A DNA stretch of 64,000 bases from an uncultured Verrucomicrobiota bacterium (lineage in GTDB: Bacteria > Verrucomicrobiota > Kiritimatiellia > JAAZAB01), in contig CAYYWX010000001.1 in the NCBI GenBank assembly GCA_964475405.1, positions 6,333 to 70,332 on the forward strand, read 5' to 3'. Under the pieces are notes generated by a model that saw only the letters and a program-made list of their open reading frames with translations, was not told where the DNA came from and did no database searches. This document shows positions 3,404-15,327 of this stretch, piece by piece; the first letter of the stretch is position 1, and each line of letters opens with the position of its first letter. The position numbers were made by a program, and so were the translations under genes.

Positions 3404-6001
3404 TTGACCAAACTTCCATTTCCGCCAATAATTGCTTCCATGTCGGTCAATCCCAACAAAAAACTTACAGGGTTGCGCCATTATCTTGCCGGAGCGCTGT
3501 CGGCGGCCTTTTTAACGGCGCTCCTCTGTTCAAGCGCTCCGGGCGCGAACCGGGATGACCTCCTCCTGGCCAACGCGGCGGCCGCGCTCGACGATGAACT
3601 GTACGAAAACGCCGAGCAGAACATCCGGCAGCACCTGAGCGGCGGCCGCGCCGACGGGCTGAAAACCGAATATGTCATCCTGCTCGCCCGGGCGCTGCAC
3701 GGCCAGAAACGCTACCCGGAAATGCTCAACCTGCTGCAACAGCGCCGCGGCGAATCGGAAAACAGCGCCCTGGCCGATGATTATTCGTTCTGGCTCGCGC
3801 TCGCCTGTTATGACAACTCCCAATTTGACGCGACGCTCAAACAAACCGATAACTTTGAAAAGCGCCATCCCGGTTCGCGGCTTATTCCCGACATCATCCG
3901 CCTGAGGGTAAAAACGCTTTTGAAACTCGGCCGGGAAGACGAGGCCATCGGGACCTTGGAGCAGCTGATCAAGGAACAAAAGGACGGCGACGAAATAGTC
4001 ATGGACCGGCTCTTGCTCGGGCAGATCCTGGCCAATGCCGGCCGGACGCAGGAAGCCTGCGCCATCCTTGAAAAGCTTCTCGTCTCCGTGCCTGACACCA
4101 GCACGGGGCAGAAGTGCCGCGTCATTCTCGGGCGGGTTTACATGGACCAGAAGCAATGGCAAAAAGCCCGGCTGGCCTTTGAGCCCCTGGTCACCCAGGG
4201 CAATGTTCCCAATAATTACCGGCGGCAGGCCATTGAATCGCTGGCGGAAATCGCGGCGGCGCAAGGCAAATTCAGCGAGGCGCTCGGCATCCTGGAAAGC
4301 GGCGCGCGCCAAATGCCAAACCCGCCGCATTCGCTTGAGCTTTCGCTGCGCAAGGGCGTTATATTGCTGGAAATGAAAAAAATTGACGAGGGAACGGCGT
4401 TGATTCACGACTATGTCAGCGCGCAAACAACCAACGCGATCGGCGCCAAGGTCCAGCTTGAGCTCGCGCAAACGCTCCTGAAAGGCGGCTATAACGAAAA
4501 AGCTCTGGTTGAATTCCAGAATTTCCTGGAAAGCTTCGCCGCGCAGGACGGTTTAACCGAGGCCTTCAAGGGAAAAGGAACGGCCCTTTTCAACCTGGAG
4601 CGCTACCATGAAGCCGCCGCCGCCTTCACCAGGGCCGACGAGGCCGCTAAAAACCCGGACGAAAAGGCGCAATGCCGCTATCGCACGGCGGACGCGCTCT
4701 TCGCGCTCGGCCAGTTCAAGGCCGCCGCCGAAACATACGCCCGGGCCGGCGAGATGCAACCGGATACCTGCCTGGCCATGATGGCGCTCTTTCAAACGGC
4801 GGAATGCCAGGCGCAAACCGGGAACATGCCCGGGGCGGAAAACACATTCTGGATTGTTTACGACACGGACCCAACCGACGCCCTCGCGCCGCGCGCCCTG
4901 CTGCGCCTCGCCGACCTTCTCCTGCAACAAAACAAACAGCGCGCGGCGGAAACCATTTACGCCTGGATTGACAATGATTATCCGGGCCAGTGGCGCGCGC
5001 GGTCGGTTTACGGGCGCGGCATGATCGCCTACCGTTCCGGCCGGTTCGCCGAGGCCCTGCAATGCTTTGAAGACACCCTGCGCCTGGCCGCCAAACCGGC
5101 CGCGGTCGGCGGGGACGATGAAGTCGCCGCGGAGGCGACTTACATGACGGGCTGGTCGTGCCTGATGCTCAACAAATCCGCCGAGGCCCGCGACCGCTTT
5201 GCCAAAGTGATCAGTTCCTATCCCCGCTCATCCAAGGCGCCCGAGGCGCTTTTCAGGATCGGCGAGGATGACTATAACAACAAGCGTTATAATTCCGCCG
5301 AAATTATATTCAGCCGCCTGGCGCATGATTATCCCGCCGCGCCGCTCGCCGCCGACGCCCTTTTCCGGGCGGGAAGATCCGCCCTGCAGCAAAACGAATT
5401 CAAGCGCGGCCGAGATTATTTTTCCGCCCTGATCAAAAATTATCCCGCCAGCCCGAAACGGCCCGAGGCCAGGTATTTCCAGGGGCTCGCGCTCTGCGAA
5501 TTGGGCCAGTTTGACGCCGCCATTCTCATTTTTAATGAAATAATCAAGCAATACCCGGACCACGACCTGGCGGAACCGGCCGCCATCAAGCGCGCCGACA
5601 GCCAGTTCGTTCTCGGCTCGGACGAGCCCAAGCGCTACGAGGAGGCGGTCGCCTCCTATCAGCTTGTCCTGGACCGGCCCGGTTGTTCCGCCGCAACGCG
5701 CCTGCAGGTGAAATATAAAATCGGGCGCTGCCTTGAAAAACTCGGCAAGACGAACGAGGCCTTTAACCAGTACTTGCAGGTCGTTTATTCATACCTGCAG
5801 AACCAGGAGCAAACGCCGGTTGGGGACCTTTGGTTCACCCGCGCGGCTTTCAACGCGGCCGGGATCCTGGAAGAACAGCAAAAATGGCGCCAGGCCGCCA
5901 ATATCTATGAAAGAGTGATCGAGGCCGATATCCCGGCCAGCCGCGATGCCGAGGAGCGCGTTGAAAAAATGCGCGCCGAGCACTGGTTGTCCTTTTATTA
6001 A
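3404..6001 (+). CDS. Large secreted tetratricopeptide (TPR) repeat protein
   Basis: N-terminal signal peptide (LAGALSAAFLTALLCSSAPGA), then ~800 aa of degenerate TPR-like helical repeats (recurrent A..Y/F...G....A). The true start may be the internal Met near 3440. Confidence 0.7.
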   Translation: MTKLPFPPIIASMSVNPNKKLTGLRHYLAGALSAAFLTALLCSSAPGANRDDLLLANAAAALDDELYENAEQNIRQHLSGGRADGLKTEYVILLARALHGQKRYPEMLNLLQQRRGESENSALADDYSFWLALACYDNSQFDATLKQTDNFEKRHPGSRLIPDIIRLRVKTLLKLGREDEAIGTLEQLIKEQKDGDEIVMDRLLLGQILANAGRTQEACAILEKLLVSVPDTSTGQKCRVILGRVYMDQKQWQKARLAFEPLVTQGNVPNNYRRQAIESLAEIAAAQGKFSEALGILESGARQMPNPPHSLELSLRKGVILLEMKKIDEGTALIHDYVSAQTTNAIGAKVQLELAQTLLKGGYNEKALVEFQNFLESFAAQDGLTEAFKGKGTALFNLERYHEAAAAFTRADEAAKNPDEKAQCRYRTADALFALGQFKAAAETYARAGEMQPDTCLAMMALFQTAECQAQTGNMPGAENTFWIVYDTDPTDALAPRALLRLADLLLQQNKQRAAETIYAWIDNDYPGQWRARSVYGRGMIAYRSGRFAEALQCFEDTLRLAAKPAAVGGDDEVAAEATYMTGWSCLMLNKSAEARDRFAKVISSYPRSSKAPEALFRIGEDDYNNKRYNSAEIIFSRLAHDYPAAPLAADALFRAGRSALQQNEFKRGRDYFSALIKNYPASPKRPEARYFQGLALCELGQFDAAILIFNEIIKQYPDHDLAEPAAIKRADSQFVLGSDEPKRYEEAVASYQLVLDRPGCSAATRLQVKYKIGRCLEKLGKTNEAFNQYLQVVYSYLQNQEQTPVGDLWFTRAAFNAAGILEEQQKWRQAANIYERVIEADIPASRDAEERVEKMRAEHWLSFY

Positions 6002-6059
6002 GGAATAAAAGAGAATAGAGTATGAGTCAGCCGAGTAAGGCCGCAGCCATCCGTGAATA

Positions 6060-6160
6060 AGAGGGAATTCGGTTCCCGTAGGGGCTGCGCCTTGTCCACC
6101 ATAGCTCCTTGAGCGACGGTGGATTGCGCAGCCCGTTCCGATTGGACGGTCTTCGGCAGG
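6060..6160. other. Structured intergenic element (extended stem-loop) between the TPR gene and exbB
   Basis: Perfect 9-bp arms gggctgcgc/gcgcagccc enclose an inner imperfect IR (ccaccat/acggtgg). Contains the 15-mer cttgtccaccatagc, whose reverse complement recurs at ~26805. Confidence 0.35.
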
Positions 6161-6200
6161 GTGAAGCCACTACTTGGCCGATTTTGGGAGGAAATGTAAA

Positions 6201-6848
6201 ATGACGACAGTATTAATTCAGGGCGGACCGTTATTGTGGTTTATCATGGCCGGCGGGGTGGCGGCGCTGGTAATTTTCCTGGAACGCTGGTTCCACATCC
6301 ACCGCGCCAAGATAAAAACCGATGATTTTTTAAACGGCATATTCAACATCCTCGGCCGCCATAATGTCACCGAAGCCCTGACGATCTGCAAGGAAACGCC
6401 CGGGCCGGTGGCGCATATCGTCCGGACGGCGGTGATGCATTCCAGCCAGCCGCCGATGATGATTGAACGCGCGATCGACGCGGTGGCCCTGAATGAAATT
6501 TCGCGCCTGGAGAGGCATTTTGCCACCCTGGCCACCATCGCCCAGACCGCGCCGGTCATCGGCCTGCTCGGCACAGTCATCGGCATGATCCAGGCCTTTA
6601 TCGCAATGCAGCAAAAAGCGCCGCTCGCGCCGGCGGCCGACCTGGCCGGCGGCATCTGGACCGCCCTGATCACAACCGCCGCCGGCCTGATCGTGGCCGT
6701 CTTTTCCTATTTCACCTACAACCTGCTGGTTGTCAAGACATCGTCCATTGTGCTGGACATGGAAAGGGCCGCCAATGAAATAACCGGCTTTTTGATCGGA
6801 CAAGGCGCCGGACAGAAGTCAGGAGACAAAAGTCAGGAGGCAGAATGA
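6201..6848 (+). CDS. exbB: MotA/TolQ/ExbB proton-channel family protein
   Basis: Three TM helices and the conserved TolQ/ExbB core (IAQTAPVIGLLGTVIGMIQAFIAM). GGGAGG RBS precedes the ATG at 6201. Confidence 0.8.
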   Translation: MTTVLIQGGPLLWFIMAGGVAALVIFLERWFHIHRAKIKTDDFLNGIFNILGRHNVTEALTICKETPGPVAHIVRTAVMHSSQPPMMIERAIDAVALNEISRLERHFATLATIAQTAPVIGLLGTVIGMIQAFIAMQQKAPLAPAADLAGGIWTALITTAAGLIVAVFSYFTYNLLVVKTSSIVLDMERAANEITGFLIGQGAGQKSGDKSQEAE

Positions 6849-6960
6849 AAAAATACGGAATACAAATCGTTCAGATAGTTTGTTTCTTGCCTGTCACTTT
6901 GTGCCTGCTGCCTTCCCTGGCCGAGCTCGGGCAGGCTGCCTTTGTGCCTATCATATAAAC

Positions 6961-7419
6961 ATGGAAACCAATATTCATCCGATCGGACAACGCTGGCGGC
7001 GGTTCCAGATGAACGCGCGAGTGTTCGACAAGCCGTTCGCGTTCATCCCGTTGCTGAACATATTCGTCCTGATATTTTTCTTCATCGTTTTCAACTCCGC
7101 CTTTGTCCTGAAGCCGGGCATTAACGTCCAGCTGCCCGCCGGCGCCTTCCAGCAAGGGGCGTTATACAGTTCCATGGCGGTCATCCTGACCCAGGAAGGC
7201 CTTGTCTTTTACAACGACGAGCGGGTGCCGCTGGACGCGCTTGCGGACGCCCTGCGCTCGTCGGTCGGCAAGAATAAATCCTTGCAGCTCACGGTGGAGG
7301 CCGACCTGCGCGTGCCCTACGACCGGGTTATCCGGGTCCTGAACATGGCCACCGCGGCCGGGGTGAGCAATATTTTTCTCTCAGTCCGGCCGACGTTCGG
7401 CGAGGAATTGATGCCATGA
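6961..7419 (+). CDS. exbD: Biopolymer transport protein ExbD/TolR
   Basis: Single N-terminal TM (IPLLNIFVLIFFFIVF) and ExbD periplasmic domain (LQLTVEADLRVPYDRVIRVLNMATAAGVSNIFL). Start is ambiguous between 6961 and 7009. Confidence 0.75.
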   Translation: METNIHPIGQRWRRFQMNARVFDKPFAFIPLLNIFVLIFFFIVFNSAFVLKPGINVQLPAGAFQQGALYSSMAVILTQEGLVFYNDERVPLDALADALRSSVGKNKSLQLTVEADLRVPYDRVIRVLNMATAAGVSNIFLSVRPTFGEELMP

Positions 7420-8165
7420 AAAAGTTTGATCGGCTGGCTTTCTACGGGTGGCCGGCGCTGGCGGTCATAATCCTCTTCGCGTTATTTGCGGGGTTATTGC
7501 TGTTGCCCGGCCGGGAAAAAGCACCCGACCGGCCCATGCCCAAAGCCGCGTCGGTCCGGTACGCGGTCACGGATAACCGCGAACCGCTCTCTCCCGCAGA
7601 AAAGGCGGAAGTCCGCGCCCTCTATGCCTCCGACCTGTTCGCCTCGTCGCGGGAAAGCCGGTTCCCGGCGCTGAACGCCGCTGTGAACCGTCTGGATCAG
7701 ACCAACATAACGCCGTCGGTGACGCCGTTGTTCTATTCCTTCCCGCCGTCGGCAAACCCGGTTTACGCGCGCCTCTCGGCCATAAACGTGCTTGGCGCCG
7801 ACAATGCCGTTGACGACCTGCCGCTTTCCGTCCACCCGCCCCGGCAATCAAGACAAAAAACTCCAAAATTATGCGTTGAAATAAAAGGCGCACTGAAACA
7901 AGGCGTGCTTGAACCCGATATATTCAACGGCAAGGCCTTCCCCCTGCCCGCGGACCGGAAACCCAGATCATTCCAGGCGCAAATCCGCGTCAACAACGAA
8001 GGGCGCGTGGAGCATGTGTTTGCCGAATCGGCGGACCGCGATGAGCCGGTTTATGCGGATATCATCAGCAGGCTTTATCAATGCCGTTTCAGCGGAATCA
8101 CCCAGGCCTGCGAAGGCACGATTATAATCGGCTACCCGGCCTATTCCGCGGACCCGGGGAAATGA
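7416..8165 (+). CDS. Membrane-anchored protein in the TonB position; TonB-like energy transducer candidate
   Basis: ATGA overlap with exbD. N-terminal TM anchor (WPALAVIILFALFAGLLLL), proline-containing linker, and a ~90-aa C-terminal domain (IRVNNEGRVEHVFAE...) of the size and position expected for a TonB C-terminal domain. Sequence similarity to TonB is not established. Confidence 0.45.
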   Translation: MKKFDRLAFYGWPALAVIILFALFAGLLLLPGREKAPDRPMPKAASVRYAVTDNREPLSPAEKAEVRALYASDLFASSRESRFPALNAAVNRLDQTNITPSVTPLFYSFPPSANPVYARLSAINVLGADNAVDDLPLSVHPPRQSRQKTPKLCVEIKGALKQGVLEPDIFNGKAFPLPADRKPRSFQAQIRVNNEGRVEHVFAESADRDEPVYADIISRLYQCRFSGITQACEGTIIIGYPAYSADPGK

Positions 8166-8407: not shown

Positions 8408-9277
8408 TTATTTATTTTTTGCGGATTTCTTGGCCTTGAAATCTTGAATCATTCTTTTTAATGATTCTCGGAATTTTTGATTCTTTGTCTCGGCCATTAC
8501 CTTCTCCATGTAAGGAATTGACGATTCATCCATACAATGAGTAATCCCGTATGCGGCTTTCACGCTTTGGACCGATTTTACAATTAACGCCGTATCCCAA
8601 AAAGTCATCAATGCAGGGACGCTCCTGGGATCCCCGAACTCCCCCAAAGTAACTGCCGCATAGCCCCTCACTTCATTTATGGCAACTTCTGGCCGCGTTC
8701 TTGATTTGGCAATCTCCGGCCTGTTCACAAAATATACGTCATTTGACACCACGTTCTCCAGAATCGGGCGCGCATCCCTGATTCCTAACTTGCTAATTGC
8801 ACAGGTAACAGCCGCGCATCCGCTCCCTTCCCCTAATGGATAATTATTCAATTCATTATTCTTCCATATCTTCTCCACCAGCAGCATGGGCACATCCTTC
8901 CCCTTGGAAGTCATATCGTCTCCAACACCAATTATTTTCATATCCCAAGCCCTCGTATCGGGATAATCCATTGCCGTTTCCACAAACTTGGCAATGGCTT
9001 TCGCCTTGGTAACCCGCTCCCTGACGATTTCACCCATAATTTTGACGCGCCAATCATCCGTTGTTTTGATTACATCGTTAAATTCCTTCGTCCTGGCGCG
9101 GTATGTCGCCTCCAAGGCCTTCCTTCCCTCCAAATATGGACCGCCTTCTTTTCCCGCCACGGCCAGGATCTGTGTTGTTAGATCGCCGTTATCATCGGCG
9201 ATGAGACCTGCGCTCGGCAACAATGCCACGGACATAACCAGGACGATCAAGAGGAACTTTTTATTAATATTTCTCAT
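8408..9277 (-). CDS. Secreted HEAT/PBS-lyase-like repeat protein; AT-richer than flanks
   Basis: Signal peptide (KKFLLIVLVMSVALLPSAG), HEAT-like repeat signature (LGEFGDPRSVPAL), and visibly lower GC than the surrounding genes. Confidence 0.55.
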   Translation of the reverse strand: MRNINKKFLLIVLVMSVALLPSAGLIADDNGDLTTQILAVAGKEGGPYLEGRKALEATYRARTKEFNDVIKTTDDWRVKIMGEIVRERVTKAKAIAKFVETAMDYPDTRAWDMKIIGVGDDMTSKGKDVPMLLVEKIWKNNELNNYPLGEGSGCAAVTCAISKLGIRDARPILENVVSNDVYFVNRPEIAKSRTRPEVAINEVRGYAAVTLGEFGDPRSVPALMTFWDTALIVKSVQSVKAAYGITHCMDESSIPYMEKVMAETKNQKFRESLKRMIQDFKAKKSAKNK

Positions 9278-9500: not shown

Positions 9501-9678
9501 CCCGGCCGTCGCGTTATCTATTCCATCCCTCCCGCTCGCCGATCTGCCCCGGCATCATCACGGTCGGGCGGTATATGAGGCATAATATCAGATCGCGCAC
9601 CCAATCGGCAACCGTTTTCAGGTTGACAACCGGGTTAGGCGTCGTTAACGTTTTATTTTCAAACCAAGGAGGTTTTGG

Positions 9679-12195
9679 ATGCATCACACGGGGGAAATCC
9701 ACGTGTCCGAGTTGCCCTCGGGTTTCAAATATGTCATAGGTATTTCGGCCCTCTTCATCGCGGGCTGCTCGGCTTTCTTCTCGGTCTGCGGGCTGGGGTT
9801 CCTCTTCGCCGGGTCGGCCGCGGCGGTGATGATCATGGCCAGCAGCCTGGAAATCGGCAAGCTCGTCGCGGCCTCGTTCCTCTACCGCTACTGGCATTAC
9901 CTCAACCGCCTGCTCAAGCTTTACCTCCTGGTCGCGGTGCTGGTCCTGATCGGAATCACGTCGCTCGGCAACTACGGCTACCTCGCCCGGGCCTACGAGC
10001 GGACCCACACGCGCGTCACCCTTTTTGAAGGACAGATCGCGGCGCTCGAGAAGGAGATCGTCGACACCCAGCGCCAAATAGACAATTCGCGCAGCCAGCT
10101 CGGCAAAACCACCGATAACAGCCGCGAGGACATCGCGAAAATCCAGCAGCGCATACCGGAGGCCAACACCCTCATGGAGCAGTCGTTGACCCGCCTCCAG
10201 GAACGGCGCAAGACCGCGCAGGAACGGCGCGACCGCGATATCCAGGCGCTGACCCAGCAGCTCGCCGACAAGGCGGAAGTGCTGAAAAAAGCCATCGGCT
10301 CCGAAGAAAGCGCCATCACGGACTGCAACGTAAGCCTGGCCGTGCTGGACCGCGCGGTGGACGCCTATACCAAGGAGGGCGGCGCCGCCATCCTTAAACC
10401 AGACAGCGTCAAGAAAGGACAGGAACTCCGCGACAAGCAGCGCCCGGAACGCGACGCGCTCTTCGCCCAGATCGTCAGCCACCGCCTGCGCCAGGAACAG
10501 CAACGCTCCGACCTGGCGAAGGCGACCGAGGCCACCGACAAGGAGCTCGCCGCGATCCGCGCCAGGTCCGCAAGCGAAATGGCGCAGTTTGACTCCGATG
10601 AACAGGACCTGCGCGAGGCCCGCAACACGGCCGTCGCGCAAGCCGAGCAGCAACTGGCCGCGCTGCGATCGCAAGGCAAGACCATCGCCGCCGGCGGCGA
10701 CACGCAGATTGAAGCATTGTACCAGCGCATCCGCGCGCGCAATGAAGATATCCGCCTCCTGCGCGAACAGATTTCCTCGACCGACATCGGCTCCTACCGC
10801 TTCGTGGCCCGCGCGTTTGACACCCAGTCGGACAGCGTCGTCAAGTGGCTGACGCTCGTGCTGGTGCTGGTGTTTGACCCGCTCGCGGTCTCGTTGGCCG
10901 TCGGTTTCAACGTCGCGATCCTGACCGACCGGCGGAGCCGGATGCCGGTCGGCGGCGGATTATTTCCCTCCGAGGCGGTGAAAGAAAAAGAAACGCCGGT
11001 CGTTGCGAAGCGCCGCAATCGCTGGCTGTTCTTCGGCACCAGCCTGCTGTTGGTGATATTTATCATCGGCACGATCGCCGCCGCCACGAACTGGGGCATC
11101 CGGACCTGGCGGCACCAGTCGCTGGCCTCCCACGCCGCGTTCATCCCGGGTGACAGCTTTGCCGTGGTCGCCCTGCACCCCGCCGCCTTGCCACGGTTCG
11201 CCCAGCGCATGAATTTACTGGCCGTGCTTGGCGCGGACGCAAGCACCAATATCACGGAATTACTGACGCAGTTACGCAACAACGGCGTTGATCCGAGCGC
11301 CGACGTGTATGCCTTCGCCAAATTCCCGACGCTCCGCAAGGAAGATCGTGGTGACCGGCCGGTTATGCTGGTCGGCCTCGTGATGCAACTGGACGATGCC
11401 AAGGTGGCGGAAAGGGCATTCTCGCAGATAGCCGACCGGTTCGGTAACATCATGAGCACGAACGCCGTCGCATTTCCGTTGCTGACCAGAAACCGGGTGA
11501 TGGTGCGCTGCGGCCAGGGACGCTATATCGATCCCGAGGGCGGTTTTTTCACCTTCGGCCTCACGGACCGCGTCGCAGTGTTCCTGCTGGAATTTGAAGG
11601 CACCCAAAATGCATCCAACGTGGAAAACGAAATGCGGATATGCCTCGCGCCCGGCGAATCCCTCTCCGGGTCCACAAGCGTGCGCGCCAAGCTGCCGGAG
11701 CGGGCCTTGAGCCGCGACGGTGCGATCGCCGTATGGTTTGACGCAAACCGTTTTTTCAACGACCTGCCGAAGAATCCGGCCGCGCAAACGCGCTACGAGC
11801 AGCTTCAACAGTATCTCGGATTTGACCTCTTGTTGAAGGCACAGCCGGAAAACGCCGATCAGTTGCAAATAACAGCCGACTATGTCTACCAAGCGGAACG
11901 GTTCAAGAACGGCCAACAGTCGACCGCAATACAACAACTTGCCGGCCTCGGCCCGGTTGACCAGGCCGGAATCGCCGGACGGTTCATGGACCGTTGTGTT
12001 GACACGCTGGACTATGACTCGCTGATTGAAAAGTTCCGCGTTGCGCTCGGGAATGCGAAACAAAAAGGCGTACGGGATTTGGTTGTTGAAAAATCGTTCA
12101 TTTCGTCGCGTAACGCGCGGTTCGTGTTGACCGTCATCTGCGACCCGCAGGCCGGGCCTCCGATGCGAGCCGTGTTAAGCGCGCTCTGGCAATGA
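9679..12195 (+). CDS. Large polytopic membrane protein: N-terminal TM bundle, ~330-aa coiled-coil, TM hairpin, ~370-aa C-terminal domain; function unknown
   Basis: AAGGAGG RBS 5 nt before the ATG. Three to four N-terminal hydrophobic helices (GISALFIAGCSAFFSVCGLGFLFAG; AAVMIMASSLEIGKLVAASFL; LYLLVAVLVLIGITSLG). A long heptad-rich Q/R/E/A-rich region (residues ~110-440). Two further TM segments (WLTLVLVLVFDPLAVSLAVGFNVAIL; WLFFGTSLLLVIFIIGTIAAA). A C-terminal globular region with no motif I recognise. Confidence 0.75.
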   Translation: MHHTGEIHVSELPSGFKYVIGISALFIAGCSAFFSVCGLGFLFAGSAAAVMIMASSLEIGKLVAASFLYRYWHYLNRLLKLYLLVAVLVLIGITSLGNYGYLARAYERTHTRVTLFEGQIAALEKEIVDTQRQIDNSRSQLGKTTDNSREDIAKIQQRIPEANTLMEQSLTRLQERRKTAQERRDRDIQALTQQLADKAEVLKKAIGSEESAITDCNVSLAVLDRAVDAYTKEGGAAILKPDSVKKGQELRDKQRPERDALFAQIVSHRLRQEQQRSDLAKATEATDKELAAIRARSASEMAQFDSDEQDLREARNTAVAQAEQQLAALRSQGKTIAAGGDTQIEALYQRIRARNEDIRLLREQISSTDIGSYRFVARAFDTQSDSVVKWLTLVLVLVFDPLAVSLAVGFNVAILTDRRSRMPVGGGLFPSEAVKEKETPVVAKRRNRWLFFGTSLLLVIFIIGTIAAATNWGIRTWRHQSLASHAAFIPGDSFAVVALHPAALPRFAQRMNLLAVLGADASTNITELLTQLRNNGVDPSADVYAFAKFPTLRKEDRGDRPVMLVGLVMQLDDAKVAERAFSQIADRFGNIMSTNAVAFPLLTRNRVMVRCGQGRYIDPEGGFFTFGLTDRVAVFLLEFEGTQNASNVENEMRICLAPGESLSGSTSVRAKLPERALSRDGAIAVWFDANRFFNDLPKNPAAQTRYEQLQQYLGFDLLLKAQPENADQLQITADYVYQAERFKNGQQSTAIQQLAGLGPVDQAGIAGRFMDRCVDTLDYDSLIEKFRVALGNAKQKGVRDLVVEKSFISSRNARFVLTVICDPQAGPPMRAVLSALWQ

Positions 12196-13046
12196 AGAAA
12201 AAATCACTTATGCGCCGGGCGCGGTCATCGCTGATCCTTGCCTTCTGCCTCTCCCTCATCCTTGCCGTGACAGGTTGCCGGACAACCGGAAAAAAAACGG
12301 GCGGGCACGCCGGGTCATCATCGCCGGCCAAATCCGATTCTTCCCCGGCAGTGCCTGATCCTGACCTCAAAAAGAGCGAACAGCCCGCTCCCCCGGCCGA
12401 AGAAAAACCGGCAACTCCTCCATCTTTGCCCATAGCCGAAACGCCTTCAAACACAGTGGCTCTGCCGCCGCCGGCCGCGCCGACTAACAAGCCGGCGGCA
12501 ACTGGCGGCAATACAAATTTGGACAATTCGGTAAAATTGCCCCAACCACCGCCGGGTAAACCGCAAACCGCCGCTGATGCGTCCGCCGTCAGGTTGCAAA
12601 TTCCGGACCGCGGCCAAAATGCTTCCGGCGCCAAAACCAACCTGTTTTACCGGCCGACTCTGGGCGGCACCTCGCGCGCAACCGGCGCCACTAATGATAA
12701 TATCCCGGCAAGGCCGCTTCCCATCGGTCTTTGGCAATCGCTGACATCTTCCTCCAAACACGCAGGAAGCACCGCGCCGTTGATGACCCCCGGCGCCGGG
12801 CAGACGCCAAGCAACCATTCCGCGAACGGGGTTACCCTGCCGGTGAAGGGAGACGCTCATCCTGCGTCATCCGACAATGAAACCCCGGCGGCGGTCCTGC
12901 CGGTGGAGCCGTTGCTGGAGAACGGCGAGACCGAGGCGCAGCGGCGCGAACGGGAGGCGGCCCGGCAGGAATCCGAGCGCAAGGCGCGGGAGGCCGGGCG
13001 CGATAACCTCAATCGCGCCTTCTATAGGTTTTTGCTGGGACAATGA
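12192..13046 (+). CDS. Proline/alanine-rich lipoprotein, operon partner of the 838-aa protein
   Basis: ATGA start/stop overlap with the upstream gene. Lipobox (LILAVTGC). Long low-complexity P/A/T/S-rich region and a charged C-terminal helix (ETEAQRREREAARQESERKAREAGRD). Confidence 0.65.
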   Translation: MKKKSLMRRARSSLILAFCLSLILAVTGCRTTGKKTGGHAGSSSPAKSDSSPAVPDPDLKKSEQPAPPAEEKPATPPSLPIAETPSNTVALPPPAAPTNKPAATGGNTNLDNSVKLPQPPPGKPQTAADASAVRLQIPDRGQNASGAKTNLFYRPTLGGTSRATGATNDNIPARPLPIGLWQSLTSSSKHAGSTAPLMTPGAGQTPSNHSANGVTLPVKGDAHPASSDNETPAAVLPVEPLLENGETEAQRREREAARQESERKAREAGRDNLNRAFYRFLLGQ

Positions 13047-13109: not shown

Positions 13110-13790
13110 TTATGAGATTTGCTTAATCAGTGTTTCTAAATGTTCTCTACGCAAGGTGGCGAGAATACATTTTCCCCAGGTGGGCGGACACCTGGCCAAC
13201 AGGTCGCGCACAATTTGCATCTCCCTCTTCTTGTTGAGAAGATCAAGAATGAGAGCGGCAGCGTCAATATCCTTCCGCTTTTTCTCCACGTTCCTACGGC
13301 GAGGCGCGACGAGTAGCTTGTGCAAAGCAAACGCCGCCGGATGCGGCGCGTTTACCGGCACGTTCCCAAAATTAAGTCGAACGGTCATCATAAGGGCAAT
13401 CCCCATGAATCGAAGCGCCTGGGCATTCAGCTTGAGCTTTGGCAAATCCTGCAGGCCCTCGCTTCCGCGTCCCCGTTCAGGAACAAGGAACTCAATCATC
13501 AATTCTGGATGCTCCAGCATCATCACGCCTTGTGTGCCTCGAAATCCCGTGATGAACCCAAGGCCTTTCAGGAGCTCCGGGACATCCACCGTTTTGCGGA
13601 TTGCCGCCACGGATGGCACCAGGAAATCCATGTCGCGCGTACGCACGGCAGGAACAGCGCCGACATCCCGGAAATAGTCGCGGTATAGAACAAGACACCA
13701 GCTTCCGACCAGGACTAGATTTTGAAGCACCCCGGCTGCCTCCAGCTTGCTGAGCACATTCAGGCATAACTCATACTGCTTGTTTTGCAC
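13110..13790 (-). CDS. Nucleotidyltransferase-fold protein (pol-beta-like GS...D.D motif); candidate toxin/defence effector
   Basis: VLVGSWCLVLYRDYF...RTRDMDFLVP matches the hG[GS] ... [DE]h[DE]h minimal NTase pattern with a longer spacer than usual. AT-richer than the genome. Its start overlaps the upstream small gene by 20 nt. Confidence 0.55.
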   Translation of the reverse strand: MQNKQYELCLNVLSKLEAAGVLQNLVLVGSWCLVLYRDYFRDVGAVPAVRTRDMDFLVPSVAAIRKTVDVPELLKGLGFITGFRGTQGVMMLEHPELMIEFLVPERGRGSEGLQDLPKLKLNAQALRFMGIALMMTVRLNFGNVPVNAPHPAAFALHKLLVAPRRRNVEKKRKDIDAAALILDLLNKKREMQIVRDLLARCPPTWGKCILATLRREHLETLIKQIS

Positions 13791-14088
13791 GGAGCGCCTT
13801 CCTCATAAAAACAATTTGTTTTCGCACATCAGAGAGGAGCTTGCGGTACTGCACGCGAAACTGCCTGGCGTTCCGATACTTGGCTATCTCCCGCTCCTCC
13901 ATATTGCGGCCTTTATATAGAAACCTTACGCGGTTCTTTTCACGGTACGCAAGATAGTAGTAAGCCCGTCCGCGGATGATCTTTTTGACCACGCATCCGC
14001 GAGGCAGTTTGCCCAATGCGCGCCGGTAATCCCGCTCCATGCGGAGCGAGTTGCCCAGCTCTTCTTTTAGTAATTCCTTGATCGCCAT
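13771..14088 (-). CDS. Small basic protein (105 aa, K/R-rich) translationally overlapped with the NTase-fold gene; candidate antitoxin/regulatory partner
   Basis: Its ORF overlaps the start of the downstream gene. Highly basic (RGRAYYYLAYREKNRVRFLYKGRNMEEREIAKYRNARQFRVQYRKLL). Same AT-rich island. Confidence 0.5.
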   Translation of the reverse strand: MAIKELLKEELGNSLRMERDYRRALGKLPRGCVVKKIIRGRAYYYLAYREKNRVRFLYKGRNMEEREIAKYRNARQFRVQYRKLLSDVRKQIVFMRKALRAKQAV

Positions 14089-14523: not shown

Positions 14524-15327
14524 TTAAAACTGGTAGGAAACGCCGATGCTGAGCACCGGGTAGAACCGGAATTTGTCGGCCTGGTTTTGCGCGTCGTCCT
14601 CTTCCTCCTGGAGGTCCGCGAGGAAAGTCGCGTCTTGCGACTTGGTGCCGTCCGCGCTCAGACTGACGCTGGGCGTGCCCTGGAACACGACGCCCAGGTC
14701 AAAGACAAAATTCCAGGCGGTATCCGGGCCGCCGACGGCGTTGCCGAACCCGATGCCGACATAAGGCCCGAAATTATTGAATTTTACCGAGCCGCTCAAA
14801 GTGCCGACTTCCTCGGGCGTGTAAAAATGCTCGCCGATCTTCTGGACGGCGTTCAGCGTGGCGTCCAGATCGCCGCGGTTGCGATTATAAAGCACGCCGC
14901 CGCTGACCCGGAAATTGTTGCCGAACGGATGCCAGTCCAGCATCAGCGGCACGGAAGCCCATTTGACATCCACCTTGTATTCCAGGTCATGGATGGTAGT
15001 GGTGAACCGCAGCGGCAGGTAATTGCCACCCACGCGCAGGTTGAGATATGATTCGACCACCCCGACCGTTACTTCCACTCCCGGGCCAAGCGTGCCGATC
15101 TTGATCGCCGCCCCGATCCAGGGCGGATAATATTCCGTTTCTTCCATTTCAAGGTCGCCGGTCTTGATCGTGGTCGTGGTGGTGGTGATGACCGTTGTTT
15201 TTTTCGCGGCGGAAGAATTGCCATCCGGGACCTCGCGCCCGGCTGCCGCGGCGTTTTGCACCAGAAGCCCGCCCGGGGCGATTAATCCGGCAAGAACAAG
15301 AGCGAGACAAGCGCGATTATATTGCAT
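14524..15327 (-). CDS. Outer-membrane beta-barrel protein (OmpA-like/opacity-family 8-strand barrel)
   Basis: Signal peptide (ACLALVLAGLIAPGGLLVQNAAAA), alternating amphipathic beta strands with aromatic girdle residues, and a C-terminal ...VSYQF ending in Phe. Confidence 0.7.
   Translation of the reverse strand: MQYNRACLALVLAGLIAPGGLLVQNAAAAGREVPDGNSSAAKKTTVITTTTTTIKTGDLEMEETEYYPPWIGAAIKIGTLGPGVEVTVGVVESYLNLRVGGNYLPLRFTTTIHDLEYKVDVKWASVPLMLDWHPFGNNFRVSGGVLYNRNRGDLDATLNAVQKIGEHFYTPEEVGTLSGSVKFNNFGPYVGIGFGNAVGGPDTAWNFVFDLGVVFQGTPSVSLSADGTKSQDATFLADLQEEEDDAQNQADKFRFYPVLSIGVSYQF

What the first reader, a model, noticed from the sequence alone, without database searches (positions are those of the whole stretch)
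9679..13046. Uncharacterised two-gene operon: 838-aa polytopic membrane protein with a ~330-residue coiled-coil plus a proline-rich lipoprotein
The large protein has an unusual topology read directly from the sequence. It has three to four N-terminal TM helices, a very long heptad-rich Q/R/E/A/L segment (roughly residues 110-440), a TM hairpin, and a ~370-aa C-terminal domain that would lie on the opposite side of the membrane. Its stop overlaps (ATGA) the start of a lipobox lipoprotein with a long P/A/T-rich linker. The pair sits inside a mosaic accessory island (8.2-14.5 kb) next to an NTase-fold pair and is itself high-GC. I cannot assign it to any characterised family. It is not MotA/ZorA-like (no MotA core) and has no SMC hinge. 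A membrane-spanning coiled-coil machine plus an OM-tethered lipoprotein suggests a trans-envelope structural or sensing complex, and it is a candidate for a novel envelope or defence-associated system.
Basis: partly seen in the sequence, partly recalled or inferred. Interest (0 to 1): 0.65.

Follow-up and report, generated by a model that had tools for sequence, protein, structure and literature searches.

The report
Envelope protein pair with phage-related core
A real, conserved but unstudied gene pair of Verrucomicrobia and relatives: an inner-membrane protein that probably sends a ~19-nm helical hairpin into the periplasm, plus a proline-rich lipoprotein, and its membrane core also occurs in thousands of unannotated proteins of large phages.

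Summary
The two overlapping genes (9679-12195 and 12192-13046, + strand) are real. The topology needs correcting. There are three N-terminal TM helices, one antiparallel helical hairpin (aa 101-367), TM4, a basic loop, TM5 and an α/β domain (aa 476-838). Two TM passes separate the hairpin from the C-terminal domain, so both lie on the same side, most likely the periplasm.

The pair is not an island cargo or a defence module. Full-length homologues occur in at least 89 species of Verrucomicrobiota and Planctomycetota, at varied and mostly housekeeping loci. In 64 of 72 loci a lipoprotein gene follows directly.

No Pfam, NCBIfam, PADLOC or PHROG family fits.

The first ~420 residues are homologous (hhalign E 2e-72) to a very large unannotated family of 270-520-aa proteins. 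That family has 3,683 clusters and occurs on at least 582 IMG/VR contigs, in large and jumbo phages of diderm hosts.

Best reading (about 0.4): a bridge from the inner membrane (IM) to the outer membrane (OM), built like a two-component spanin but chromosomal and much larger. The function is untested.

The parts
9666..9672 (+). Shine-Dalgarno sequence AAGGAGG, 6 nt upstream of the ATG of the large gene
   Evidence: Read directly from the sequence.
9679..12195 (+). Gene A: 838-aa polytopic inner-membrane protein (a phage-related 4-TM plus hairpin core, then TM5 and a periplasmic α/β domain)
   Evidence: ORF. More than 373 full-length homologues. AF2 model with mean pLDDT 79.7.
9721..9978 (+). 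aa 15-100: TM1, TM2 and TM3. This is the most conserved part. Invariant residues include S35, G38, E58, K61, W72, T94, S95, G97 and G100, so two charged residues (E58, K61) sit inside helix 2.
   Evidence: Hydropathy, AF2 helices and conservation. A profile of aa 12-128 finds 3,683 clusters.
9979..10377 (+). aa 101-233: hairpin arm 1, continuous with TM3
   Evidence: AF2 helix H77-233 with pLDDT up to 94. Insertions of +25, +50 or +75 residues at aa 207 in longer homologues. Hydrophobic period 3.56.
10378..10404 (+). aa 234-242: hairpin tip (window GGAAILKPD; family consensus GGPGFFKxD). It lies inside a conserved block, aa 221-258.
   Evidence: AF2 loop. Invariant D224, V227, Y230, G234, D242, G247, Q254 and R258. 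A related tip (PGGLF...KQxPERD) occurs in the closest phage relatives.
10405..10779 (+). aa 243-367: hairpin arm 2
   Evidence: AF2 helix H243-367. Matched insertions of +29, +58 or +87 residues at aa 279.
10780..10926 (+). aa 368-416: juxtamembrane motif TDIGSYRFVARAF, then VVKW, then TM4 with the invariant VFDPLA (D400-P401) and N411
   Evidence: Conservation. hhalign aligns this block to the phage family.
10927..11019 (+). aa 417-447: disordered, poorly conserved basic loop, predicted cytoplasmic
   Evidence: pLDDT below 50. Family mean of 6.0 K+R against 3.0 D+E.
11020..11103 (+). aa 448-475: TM5, a poorly conserved membrane anchor for the C-terminal domain
   Evidence: Hydropathy, AF2 and column conservation of 0.37-0.38.
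11104..12192 (+). aa 476-838: α/β domain, predicted periplasmic. It is absent from the phage relatives.
12192..13046 (+). Gene B: 284-aa lipoprotein, translationally coupled to gene A through an ATGA overlap
   Evidence: ORF and overlap. A lipobox ORF lies next to 64 of 72 complete homologues of gene A.
12192..12278 (+). aa 1-29: signal peptide with lipobox V-T-G-C (Cys29); the +2 residue is Arg
   Evidence: Sequence. No Asp at +2 in any of the complete partners listed.
12279..12947 (+). aa 30-252: low-complexity linker rich in P, A, T, S and G, poorly conserved and very variable in length between genomes
   Evidence: Composition. Mean P+A+T+S+G fraction of 0.53 across the family, with mature lengths of 185-500 aa.
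12948..13043 (+). aa 253-284: the only conserved part of gene B, a charged segment followed by an amphipathic C-terminal motif (...ERKAREAGRDNLNRAFYRFLLGQ)
   Evidence: Alignment of partners from four loci. The regex found an LxxA[LF]Y[RK]FL-type motif in 21 of 58 complete partners, and by eye other lineages carry variant aromatic and basic C-terminal motifs.

Best explanation
The pair encodes a chromosomal cell-envelope complex of Verrucomicrobiota and Planctomycetota.

**Protein A.** It sits in the inner membrane with its N-terminus in the cytoplasm. TM1-TM2 form a helical hairpin, the TM2-TM3 loop is cytoplasmic, and TM3 runs straight into a two-helix antiparallel hairpin that projects into the periplasm. 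Each arm is about 125 residues here, roughly 19 nm at 1.5 Å per residue, and up to about 210 residues (about 31 nm) in relatives. The chain returns through TM4 and crosses once more through TM5. TM5 then anchors a TP0453-like α/β domain on the periplasmic face.

**Protein B.** It is made by translational coupling, lipidated at Cys29 and probably sorted to the outer membrane. It hangs a flexible P/A/T-rich tether of more than 200 residues into the periplasm. Its short conserved C-terminal amphipathic segment is proposed to dock on protein A, either at the conserved hairpin tip or on the C-terminal domain. That would tie the inner and outer membranes together.

In layout this is a two-component spanin or an IM-OM tether: an inner-membrane coiled-coil protein plus a proline-rich OM lipoprotein encoded by overlapping genes.

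**What is shown:** the gene structure, the hairpin, family conservation, conservation of the pairing, and homology of the core to phage proteins.

**What is inferred:** the periplasmic orientation, OM sorting of protein B, contact between A and B, and the tethering function.
For: - **Hairpin.** AF2 gives H77-233 and H243-367 with pLDDT above 90. Independently, longer homologues have paired insertions symmetric about the tip. Hairpin loop lengths fall into discrete classes of about 255, 330, 355 and 410 residues. The hydrophobic period is 3.56-3.58 residues, which fits 25-residue insertion units.
- **Orientation.** The TM2-TM3 loop and the TM4-TM5 loop are net positive (+2.4 and +3.0). In the phage relatives the TM2-TM3 loop has 3.1 K+R against 0.4 D+E.
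- **Partner gene.** A lipobox ORF directly follows 64 of 72 complete homologues, starting -4 to +13 nt from the stop codon in most of them. It shares the same layout of signal peptide, P/A/T/S/G-rich linker (mean 53%) and short C-terminal motif. None has Asp at +2.
- **Chromosomal gene.** Homologues occur in 89 GTDB species at varied loci, and the neighbours in the five annotated contexts are mostly housekeeping genes.
- **Tip.** The conserved tip block suggests a binding site at the distal end of the hairpin.
- **Spanin hints.** There are weak PHROG matches of TM3 plus the start of the coil to Rz-like i-spanins (E 0.007 and 8e-4). All seven identified host genera of phage relatives are diderm.
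Against: - No experiment and no complex prediction supports contact between A and B.
- Topology rests on the positive-inside rule and on analogy.
- Hairpin length does not correlate with partner length (rho 0.15, p 0.29), so there is no sign of a co-evolving ruler.
- The C-terminal motif of protein B is heterogeneous: only 21 of 58 partners match one regular expression.
- Most phage relatives have hairpin arms of only about 55 residues (about 8 nm), too short to span a periplasm. They have no adjacent lipoprotein gene in the contexts inspected.
- The invariant intramembrane residues E58, K61 and D400 are unexplained by a purely structural tether.
- The Rz-like PHROG matches are at chance level for a TM helix followed by a coiled coil.
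Confidence: 0.4

Rival explanations
1. The conserved 4-TM bundle is an ion-coupled or voltage-sensing membrane device (holin-like, or a PMF-driven transducer in the manner of ExbBD-TonB). Its intramembrane E58, K61 and D400-P401 are the working part, and the hairpin transmits or gates a conformational change toward the wall or the OM. The lipoprotein and the C-terminal domain are lineage-specific add-ons.
For: - The TM helices are the most conserved part of the protein (0.76-0.87 column identity).
- E, K and D are invariant or nearly so across the cellular family and the phage family.
- Some phage relatives sit beside peptidoglycan hydrolases or holin genes: sigma70-homologue-Amidase_2, a glucosaminidase, and chitinase plus holin 2 kb away.
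Against: - There is no homology to any holin, MotA/ExbB or channel family.
- The link to lysis genes is not general. Only 2 of 141 immediate neighbours in 73 viral loci are Amidase_2, while Hsp20 (23) and UvdE (14) dominate.
- The proteins are far larger than typical holins.
Confidence: 0.17
2. It is a lipid or lipoprotein handling machine. The TP0453-like domain (a fold I recall as related to the lipid carriers LppX and LprG) binds acyl chains or inserts into membranes. The hairpin acts as a scaffold or conduit, and the complex moves lipids or the partner lipoprotein between the membranes.
For: - The partner is a lipoprotein.
Against: - The fold match comes from one method only.
- No ATPase, MCE, LolCDE-like or AsmA-like component is linked in the five annotated contexts.
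- The phage relatives lack this domain altogether.
Confidence: 0.13
3. The hairpin and C-terminal domain are cytoplasmic, and the protein is an SMC-, MCP- or EzrA-like membrane-anchored scaffold (for example for division or signalling). The lipoprotein is merely a neighbour.
For: - The paired-insertion pattern is the same as in chemoreceptor signalling hairpins (my own knowledge).
- The only PDB fold matches of the full model are SMC, Rad50 and MCP coils.
- One context has FtsB/DivIC upstream.
- The tail after TM4 in phage relatives is not net positive.
Against: - The TM2-TM3 and TM4-TM5 loops are clearly positive.
- The structural neighbours of the C-terminal domain are extracytoplasmic.
- A lipobox gene follows in 64 of 72 loci, starting -4 to +13 nt from the stop codon in most of them, which argues for a shared compartment.
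- There is no HAMP, kinase-docking, ATPase or hinge element.
Confidence: 0.08
4. It is an anti-phage defence or abortive-infection module carried on an accessory island.
For: - In this window the pair is flanked by low-GC genes, including an NTP_transf_8 protein.
- In the closest relative (79% identity) an IS21-type element follows the pair.
- The core is shared with phages.
Against: - No PADLOC model matches beyond coiled-coil noise.
- The pair has the GC of the rest of the first 24 kb of the window.
- The homologues inspected lie among housekeeping genes at different loci, not in defence islands.
- The pair is widely retained across two phyla.
Confidence: 0.05
5. It is a resident prophage lysis cassette, that is, a true two-component spanin.
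For: The layout resembles a spanin, the core has phage relatives, and there are weak hits to phrog_739 (Rz-like spanin).
Against: - Protein A has 838 aa and five TM helices, whereas i-spanins have about 100-200 aa and one.
- There are no phage genes nearby in this window or in the five other contexts.
- The pair is conserved in at least 89 species.
- Phage relatives lack both the C-terminal domain and the lipoprotein partner.
Confidence: 0.03

Closest known systems
Two-component phage spanins (i-spanin Rz plus o-spanin Rz1)
   Same: - An inner-membrane protein whose TM helix runs into a periplasmic coiled coil.
- A proline-rich OM lipoprotein partner.
- Overlapping genes for the two proteins.
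- A proposed interaction through the partner's C-terminus.
- Relatives of the core are phage-encoded.
   Different: - Protein A is 4-8 times larger, has five TM helices, and carries an antiparallel hairpin anchored at both ends rather than a free C-terminal coil. It also has an extra α/β domain.
- The pair is chromosomal and vertically conserved, with no holin or endolysin nearby.
- Sequence similarity to Rz is at noise level (E 0.007).
Unannotated family of large-phage proteins, 270-520 aa (for example Xanthomonas phage XacN1 ORF242, Pelagibacter phage Mosig_00157, Flavobacterium phage immuto35A_85)
   Same: True homologues of aa 1-420: TM1-3, the hairpin, the juxtamembrane motif and the VFDPLA helix of TM4 (hhalign probability 100%, E 2e-72).
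   Different: - They lack TM5, the C-terminal domain and the lipoprotein partner.
- Their hairpin is usually much shorter (median loop of 118 residues against 261).
- Their function is also unknown; all are annotated as hypothetical.
TP0453 (Treponema pallidum p30.5; PDB 3k8g)
   Different: - Identity is 9%, and neither a sequence profile nor Foldseek detects the relationship.
- TP0453 is a free-standing lipoprotein of 251 residues, whereas this domain has about 360 residues and is TM-anchored.
Pfam DUF4407 (PF14362)
   Same: From memory, it has a similar layout of N-terminal TM helices, a long coiled coil and a C-terminal TM helix. Two of 96 phage-type relatives give weak hits (best E 3.9e-4).
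   Different: - The window protein has no hit even at E<=1.
- The similarity is below any threshold.
- DUF4407 itself has no known function.
Length-variable α-helical hairpins of chemoreceptors and of membrane-fusion proteins (AcrA, MacA, HlyD)
   Same: - An antiparallel two-helix hairpin that changes length through matched insertions in both arms.
- A conserved tip that could dock a partner, as in the tip-to-tip contact of a membrane-fusion protein (MFP) with TolC (my own knowledge).
   Different: - There are no HAMP or signalling motifs and no lipoyl, β-barrel or MP domains.
- There are no significant Pfam or NCBIfam matches.
- No transporter or TolC gene is linked in the five annotated contexts.

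Membership tests
DUF4407 (PF14362) | Match to the Pfam HMM at or above the gathering score | tested here: not met
   The window protein has no hit at E<=1. Only 2 of 96 phage-type relatives hit, with a best E of 3.9e-4, below threshold.
Two-component spanin (Rz/Rz1 type) | i-spanin: a single N-terminal TM helix, a periplasmic coiled coil and a free C-terminus; sequence match to Rz-like families | tested here: not met
   Protein A has five TM helices and a hairpin anchored at both ends. The phrog_739 match has E 0.007 and covers only TM3 and the first 60 coil residues.
Two-component spanin (Rz/Rz1 type) | o-spanin: a small OM lipoprotein, proline-rich, encoded by a gene overlapping or embedded in the i-spanin gene | tested here: inconclusive
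   The lipobox, 16% proline and ATGA overlap are present. The protein has 284 aa (185-500 aa mature in relatives), whereas o-spanins have about 40-130 aa. There is no PHROG hit.
Two-component spanin (Rz/Rz1 type) | Location in a phage lysis cassette with a holin and an endolysin | tested here: not met
   There are no phage or lysis genes around the pair in this window or in five other contexts.
MotA/ExbB/TolQ/ZorA stator-like proteins | MotA_ExbB channel core | tested here: not met
   There is no Pfam, NCBIfam or PADLOC (ZorA) match. A genuine ExbB-like gene lies separately at 6174-6848 (assigned from the sequence, not scanned).
SMC/Rad50/MukB/JetC | ABC ATPase head and a hinge or zinc hook | tested here: not met
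   Only the coiled-coil region gives weak hits (E 3.7e-4 to 0.07, hundreds of bits below the cut-offs). There is no head or hinge, and the termini are TM helices.
TP0453 / LppX-LprG-like lipid-binding α/β fold | Shared fold of the C-terminal domain | tested here: inconclusive
TP0453 / LppX-LprG-like lipid-binding α/β fold | A hydrophobic ligand cavity or membrane-inserting amphipathic helices | not testable with these tools
   Model coordinates could not be inspected, and there are no binding data.
Known anti-phage defence systems (PADLOC-DB 2.0) | Match of either protein to a defence-system HMM; location in a defence island | tested here: not met
   Protein A gives only coiled-coil noise (E>=0.036) and protein B gives nothing. 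The neighbours elsewhere are housekeeping genes.
Polysaccharide co-polymerase (Wzz/PCP) and HlyD-type membrane-fusion proteins | Wzz/GNVR or HlyD/biotin-lipoyl/β-barrel domains flanking the periplasmic helical hairpin | tested here: not met
   There are no Pfam or NCBIfam matches for the window protein. One phage relative gives a coil-only match to TIGR01843 at E 8.9e-4.
New superfamily defined here (4-TM plus hairpin core) | - Motifs AGC(S/A)A(F/Y)FSVxGLG, SLExGKL and ITSxG(N/I)YG(Y/F)L in TM1-3.
- A helical hairpin.
- (D/E)IG(S/P)(Y/F/L)(R/K)(F/Y)(V/I)A, then VVxW, then VFDPLA in TM4. | tested here: met
   The window protein carries all the motifs. The profile search finds 3,683 clusters. 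hhalign of A1 against A5 gives probability 100% and E 2e-72.

The most novel reading that the evidence does not exclude
The 4-TM plus hairpin core is a previously unrecognised, ancient membrane machine shared by large and jumbo phages of diderm bacteria and by PVC bacteria. Its invariant intramembrane Glu, Lys and Asp-Pro residues couple membrane potential or ion flow to movement of a periplasmic hairpin of adjustable length, which acts on the wall or the outer membrane. Verrucomicrobia and Planctomycetes have recruited this module, perhaps from phages. They added a membrane-interacting domain and an OM lipoprotein to build a chromosomal system that bridges or remodels the two membranes.
Probability: 0.15. 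Interest if true: 0.85.

Novelty: new variant of a known kind. Interest (0 to 1): 0.55.

Why it matters
**Envelope biology of PVC bacteria.** How these bacteria keep their two membranes connected and spaced is poorly understood. A conserved pair of an IM protein with a hairpin of adjustable length (about 19-31 nm) and an OM lipoprotein is a concrete, testable candidate for that role.

**An unannotated phage family.** The same membrane core defines a very large family: 3,683 clusters at 50% identity and at least 582 IMG/VR contigs. Members occur in isolated phages of Xanthomonas, Stenotrophomonas, Ralstonia, Flavobacterium, Pelagibacter and Microcystis. None of the four libraries scanned (Pfam, NCBIfam, PHROGs, PADLOC) describes it. 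Working out the function in either setting would annotate thousands of genes and reveal a link between phages and their hosts.

Tried and rejected
- **Family scans.** Pfam, NCBIfam, PADLOC and PHROG scans of both proteins gave only coiled-coil noise.
- **Lipoprotein homologue search.** A search with the lipoprotein alone returned nothing, not even itself. It is low-complexity and fast-evolving. Its conservation had to be shown through synteny instead.
- **PDB sequence profiles.** Profiles of the whole protein, the C-terminal domain, the TM module and the phage family gave only coiled-coil hits.
- **Foldseek, full model.** The search against the PDB returned only SMC, Rad50 and MCP coils.
- **AlphaFold database.** The afdb50 library was unavailable.
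- **Phage lysis-cassette hypothesis.** It was suggested by four contexts. A census of ±1 neighbours in 73 IMG/VR loci rejected it as a general rule: Hsp20 in 23, UvdE in 14 and Amidase_2 in only 2 of 141 ORFs.
- **Periplasmic-ruler co-variation.** Hairpin length does not correlate with partner length (rho 0.15, p 0.29).
- **Strict heptad periodicity.** It is not significant on the single sequence (p 0.07 and 0.29). The family profile peaks at 3.56-3.58 residues instead.
- **Tip motif regex.** A regular expression for the motif just after the tip (KQxPERD type) matched 40 of 155 long proteins, against 5-6 in shuffled loops, and 7 of 85 short ones, against 0-2. The tip motif is therefore not universal in the phage family.
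- **Exact look-up of the window protein.** It is not on record in the contig index.
- **Literature.** Searches for DUF4407, UPF0242 and TP0453 gave no functional lead for this family. The two TP0453 papers are not held.

Full report
**1. The observation**

The window holds an 838-aa ORF at 9679-12195 (+) and a 284-aa ORF at 12192-13046 (+). The start codon of the second overlaps the stop of the first as ATGA. A strong Shine-Dalgarno sequence (AAGGAGG, 9666-9672) precedes the first gene. The pair has 59-65% GC, like the rest of the first 24 kb of the window that was profiled. The flanking genes at 8.0-9.5 kb and 13.0-14.5 kb have 47-54%.

Both genes are clearly real. The large protein has more than 373 full-length relatives at 43-79% identity, all unnamed or 'hypothetical'.

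**2. Anatomy of protein A**

Hydropathy and an AlphaFold2 model built on 86 homologues (mean pLDDT 79.7) agree on this layout:
- three N-terminal TM helices (aa 15-44, 47-70, 77-100)
- a helix from aa 77 to 233 that continues TM3 without a break
- a 9-residue tip (234-242)
- a return helix (243-367)
- a short conserved juxtamembrane motif
- TM4 (384-420 in the model)
- a disordered basic loop (421-447)
- TM5 (448-482 in the model)
- an α/β domain (about 490-838)

The hairpin does not rest on the model alone. Homologues of 935-1010 aa carry two insertions each, placed symmetrically around the tip and matched in size. Most have +25/+29, +50/+58 or +75/+87 residues at aa 207 and 279. One has +84/+87 at aa 172 and 314. 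Only an antiparallel hairpin explains that pattern.

Hairpin loop lengths in the cellular family fall into classes of about 255, 330, 355 and 410 residues. This corresponds to arms of about 125-210 residues, or roughly 19-31 nm at 1.5 Å per residue (my arithmetic).

The hydrophobic period of the family profile is 3.56-3.58 residues (p 0.002 and 0.016). That is 25 residues per 7 turns, which fits the 25-residue insertion unit. A strict 3.5 period is not significant on the single sequence. 'Heptad-rich' is therefore only approximately right.

**3. Topology**

That cannot be so, because TM4 and TM5 both lie between them.

Three indications place the hairpin and the C-terminal domain in the periplasm:
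- The TM2-TM3 loop and the TM4-TM5 loop are net positive across the family (+2.4, and +3.0 with 6 K+R). In the phage relatives the TM2-TM3 loop has 3.1 K+R against 0.4 D+E.
- The two best structural neighbours of the C-terminal domain are extracytoplasmic proteins.
- The gene is translationally coupled to a lipoprotein gene.

This is inference, not proof. One counter-indication is that the tail after TM4 in phage relatives is not net positive.

**4. Conservation pattern**

The most conserved segments are:
- TM1-3 (0.76-0.87 column identity)
- the block around the tip, aa 221-258 (invariant D224, V227, Y230, G234, D242, G247, Q254, R258)
- aa 361-411 (TDIGSYRFVARAF, then VVKW, then VFDPLA, then N411)

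TM5 and the loop before it are poorly conserved, at 0.23-0.38.

Invariant charged residues sit inside predicted membrane helices: E58 and K61 in helix 2, and D400-P401 in TM4. A purely structural role does not explain them.

**5. The C-terminal domain**

[quoted passage not shown] It cites papers whose titles say that TP0453 enhances membrane permeability and integrates into membranes through amphipathic helices. I could not read those papers.

Foldseek against the PDB does not recover TP0453 and finds nothing significant. Sequence profiles find nothing either. I therefore treat the fold assignment as moderate.

**6. Protein B**

It has a signal peptide and a lipobox (V-T-G-C, Cys29). A linker of about 220 residues follows, rich in P, A, T, S and G. 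Then comes a conserved C-terminal segment (…ERKAREAGRDNLNRAFYRFLLGQ).

A homologue search with the protein found nothing, so I tested conservation through synteny. Of 72 loci with a complete gene A, 64 have a lipobox ORF next to it, in most cases starting -4 to +13 nt from the stop codon. These partners have mature lengths of 185-500 aa and a mean P+A+T+S+G content of 53%. None has Asp at +2.

The C-terminal motif varies by lineage. A regular expression found the LxxA[LF]Y[RK]FL type in 21 of 58 partners, and by eye other aromatic and basic variants occur elsewhere.

The conserved unit is therefore the pair, and the only conserved part of B is its two ends.

**7. Distribution and context**

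A scan of one genome per GTDB species found 89 loci. Of the 80 listed, nearly all with an informative title are labelled Verrucomicrobiota (Opitutae, Verrucomicrobiia/Limisphaerales/Pedosphaera) or Planctomycetota (Phycisphaerae, Tepidisphaerales), plus one Kiritimatiellia. Nearly all are MAGs, and a few carry titles that look mislabelled, such as Klebsiella or Akkermansia muciniphila.

Five gene neighbourhoods differ completely from one another and from this window. Most hold housekeeping genes (ribosomal protein S2, EF-Ts, enolase, FtsB, TsaD, IF-2, NusA). The closest relative (79% identity) has a radical-SAM gene upstream and an IS21-type element downstream.

Nothing links the pair to the HEAT-repeat gene or to the NTP_transf_8 pair that flank it here. 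No PADLOC model matches. The 'accessory island / defence' framing is therefore not supported.

**8. The unexpected relatives**

I searched a profile of aa 12-128 (TM1-3 and the start of arm 1) exhaustively against 1.84 billion representative proteins. It found 3,683 clusters at E<=1e-3 and 2,848 at E<=1e-10.

After about two dozen full-length family members, the list is dominated by proteins of 290-520 aa. Six sampled sequences show the same core and then stop (TM1-3, a hairpin, an (E/D)IG(P/S)(L/F)K(Y/F)IA motif, VVxWF, VFDPLA), or carry only a charged tail. A profile-profile comparison gives probability 100% and E 2e-72 over both the N-terminal and the TM4 blocks.

These short proteins are viral:
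- They lie on phage-like contigs of 157 kb and 366 kb and on other phage-like contigs.
- They are found in at least 582 IMG/VR contigs.
- tblastn finds them in 15 deposited phage genomes: Xanthomonas phages XacN1 and Xoo-sp13, Stenotrophomonas phages CM1 and RAS14, Ralstonia phage RsoM2USA, Salicola phage SCTP-2, Microcystis phage Mel-JY01, Flavobacterium 'immuto' phages, Pelagibacter phage Mosig, and metagenomic phage genomes of 484 and 735 kb.
- All are annotated as hypothetical, and all identified hosts are diderm.

No Pfam, NCBIfam or PHROG family covers them. The only recurring weak hits are Tetraspanin (7 of 96), UPF0242 (4 of 96) and DUF4407 (2 of 96, best E 3.9e-4), all below threshold.

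Their hairpins are usually short (median loop of 118 residues).

**9. What the phage contexts say**

Some contexts suggested a role in lysis:
- the gene overlaps an Amidase_2 gene on two jumbo-like contigs
- it follows a glucosaminidase in Mosig
- it lies 2 kb from a chitinase and a holin in immuto

In XacN1 and RAS14, however, it sits among replication genes. I also took a census of the immediate neighbours in 73 IMG/VR loci. It found Hsp20 (23 ORFs) and UvdE (14) far more often than Amidase_2 (2 of 141).

The lysis link is therefore specific to some clades at best. The function in phages stays unknown.

**10. Interpretation**

The best-supported reading is a bridge between the inner and outer membranes.
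- Protein A is embedded in the inner membrane and projects a long hairpin with a conserved tip. It also presents a membrane-interacting domain on the periplasmic face.
- Protein B is anchored by its lipid, probably in the OM, and reaches across through a long flexible tether. Its conserved C-terminal segment is the obvious docking element.

The layout parallels two-component spanins: an IM coiled-coil protein, a proline-rich OM lipoprotein, overlapping genes and phage kinship of the core. Membership fails on several defining features (number of TM helices, a hairpin anchored at both ends, size, and the absence of a lysis cassette).

I put this at about 0.4. No A-B contact has been shown. Hairpin length and partner length do not co-vary. 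The intramembrane charges and the short phage hairpins hint at a different core activity, such as an ion-coupled or voltage-sensing membrane device (about 0.17). Lipid or lipoprotein handling through the TP0453-like domain is the next rival (about 0.13).

A cytoplasmic scaffold, a defence system and a prophage spanin are each unlikely.

**11. Novelty and value**

The pair belongs to no described family. At the level of architecture it is a variant of the known theme of IM coiled-coil protein plus OM lipoprotein, so I rate it 'new variant of a known kind' rather than categorically new. Nothing here shows a new principle.

Its value is twofold. It offers a concrete candidate for envelope coupling in PVC bacteria. 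It also defines a very large phage and host membrane-protein superfamily that is absent from the four curated libraries scanned here.

Interest is 0.55: a solid, well-delimited unknown with an unexpected phage connection, but no functional evidence yet.

Noticed in passing
window 3404-8165 (+): Upstream lies an apparent TonB/Tol-type energy-transduction cluster: an 865-aa TPR-rich protein (3404-6001), an ExbB/TolQ-like protein (6174-6848), an ExbD-like protein (6880-7419) and a 249-aa protein with one N-terminal TM helix (7416-8165; no Pfam hit). The first three were assigned by eye from the sequences and were not scanned. The cluster is not linked to the pair in the five other genomic contexts annotated.
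   Followed up: partly
window 8408-9277 (-): A low-GC (47%) gene encodes a 289-aa secreted-looking protein with a PBS-lyase HEAT-like repeat (PF03130, E 8e-6). It looks like a recent insertion between the ExbBD cluster and the pair.
   Followed up: partly
window 13110-14088 (-): A low-GC two-gene unit encodes an NTP_transf_8 nucleotidyltransferase (PF12281, E 4e-24) and an overlapping 105-aa upstream protein (weak PADLOC hit to NDT_II-A, E 0.036). It may be a toxin-antitoxin-like or defence-related pair. It converges on the end of the lipoprotein gene.
   Followed up: partly
window 14524-15327 (-): A 267-aa outer-membrane β-barrel protein with similarity to the CarO porin (NF038067, E 5e-15, far below the cut-off).
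   Followed up: no
homologues P0019-P0080 relative to window aa 207 and 279: Hairpin length changes in quanta of about 25 residues in arm 1 and about 29 in arm 2 (one, two or three units). This matches the 3.56-3.58-residue hydrophobic period (25 residues per 7 turns). It suggests modular duplication of a structural repeat, and lineage-specific tuning of reach.
   Followed up: partly
IMG/VR loci L100-L179, ORFs next to the phage homologue: In the sampled viral contigs the phage homologue most often sits beside a small heat-shock protein gene (Hsp20, 23 of 141 neighbouring ORFs) and a UV endonuclease gene (UvdE, 14). This is a conserved block of unknown significance.
   Followed up: partly
L091 10450-10935; L095 4201-4551: Two unrelated phages that carry the homologue near a peptidoglycan hydrolase also encode a small protein with an N-terminal TM helix and a coiled coil. 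The two proteins share a C-terminal motif (VDNYTPSDIDSFFTNRYH and VDTYTASELEQFFTDRYN), which makes them candidate Rz-like i-spanins.
   Followed up: no
L005 10001-12586: One homologue (P0026, 861 aa) has an aberrant C-terminus and no downstream lipoprotein gene. This is probably a frameshift or assembly error, or a decayed copy. Here the gene follows enolase, FtsB/DivIC and a 127-aa ORF.
   Followed up: no
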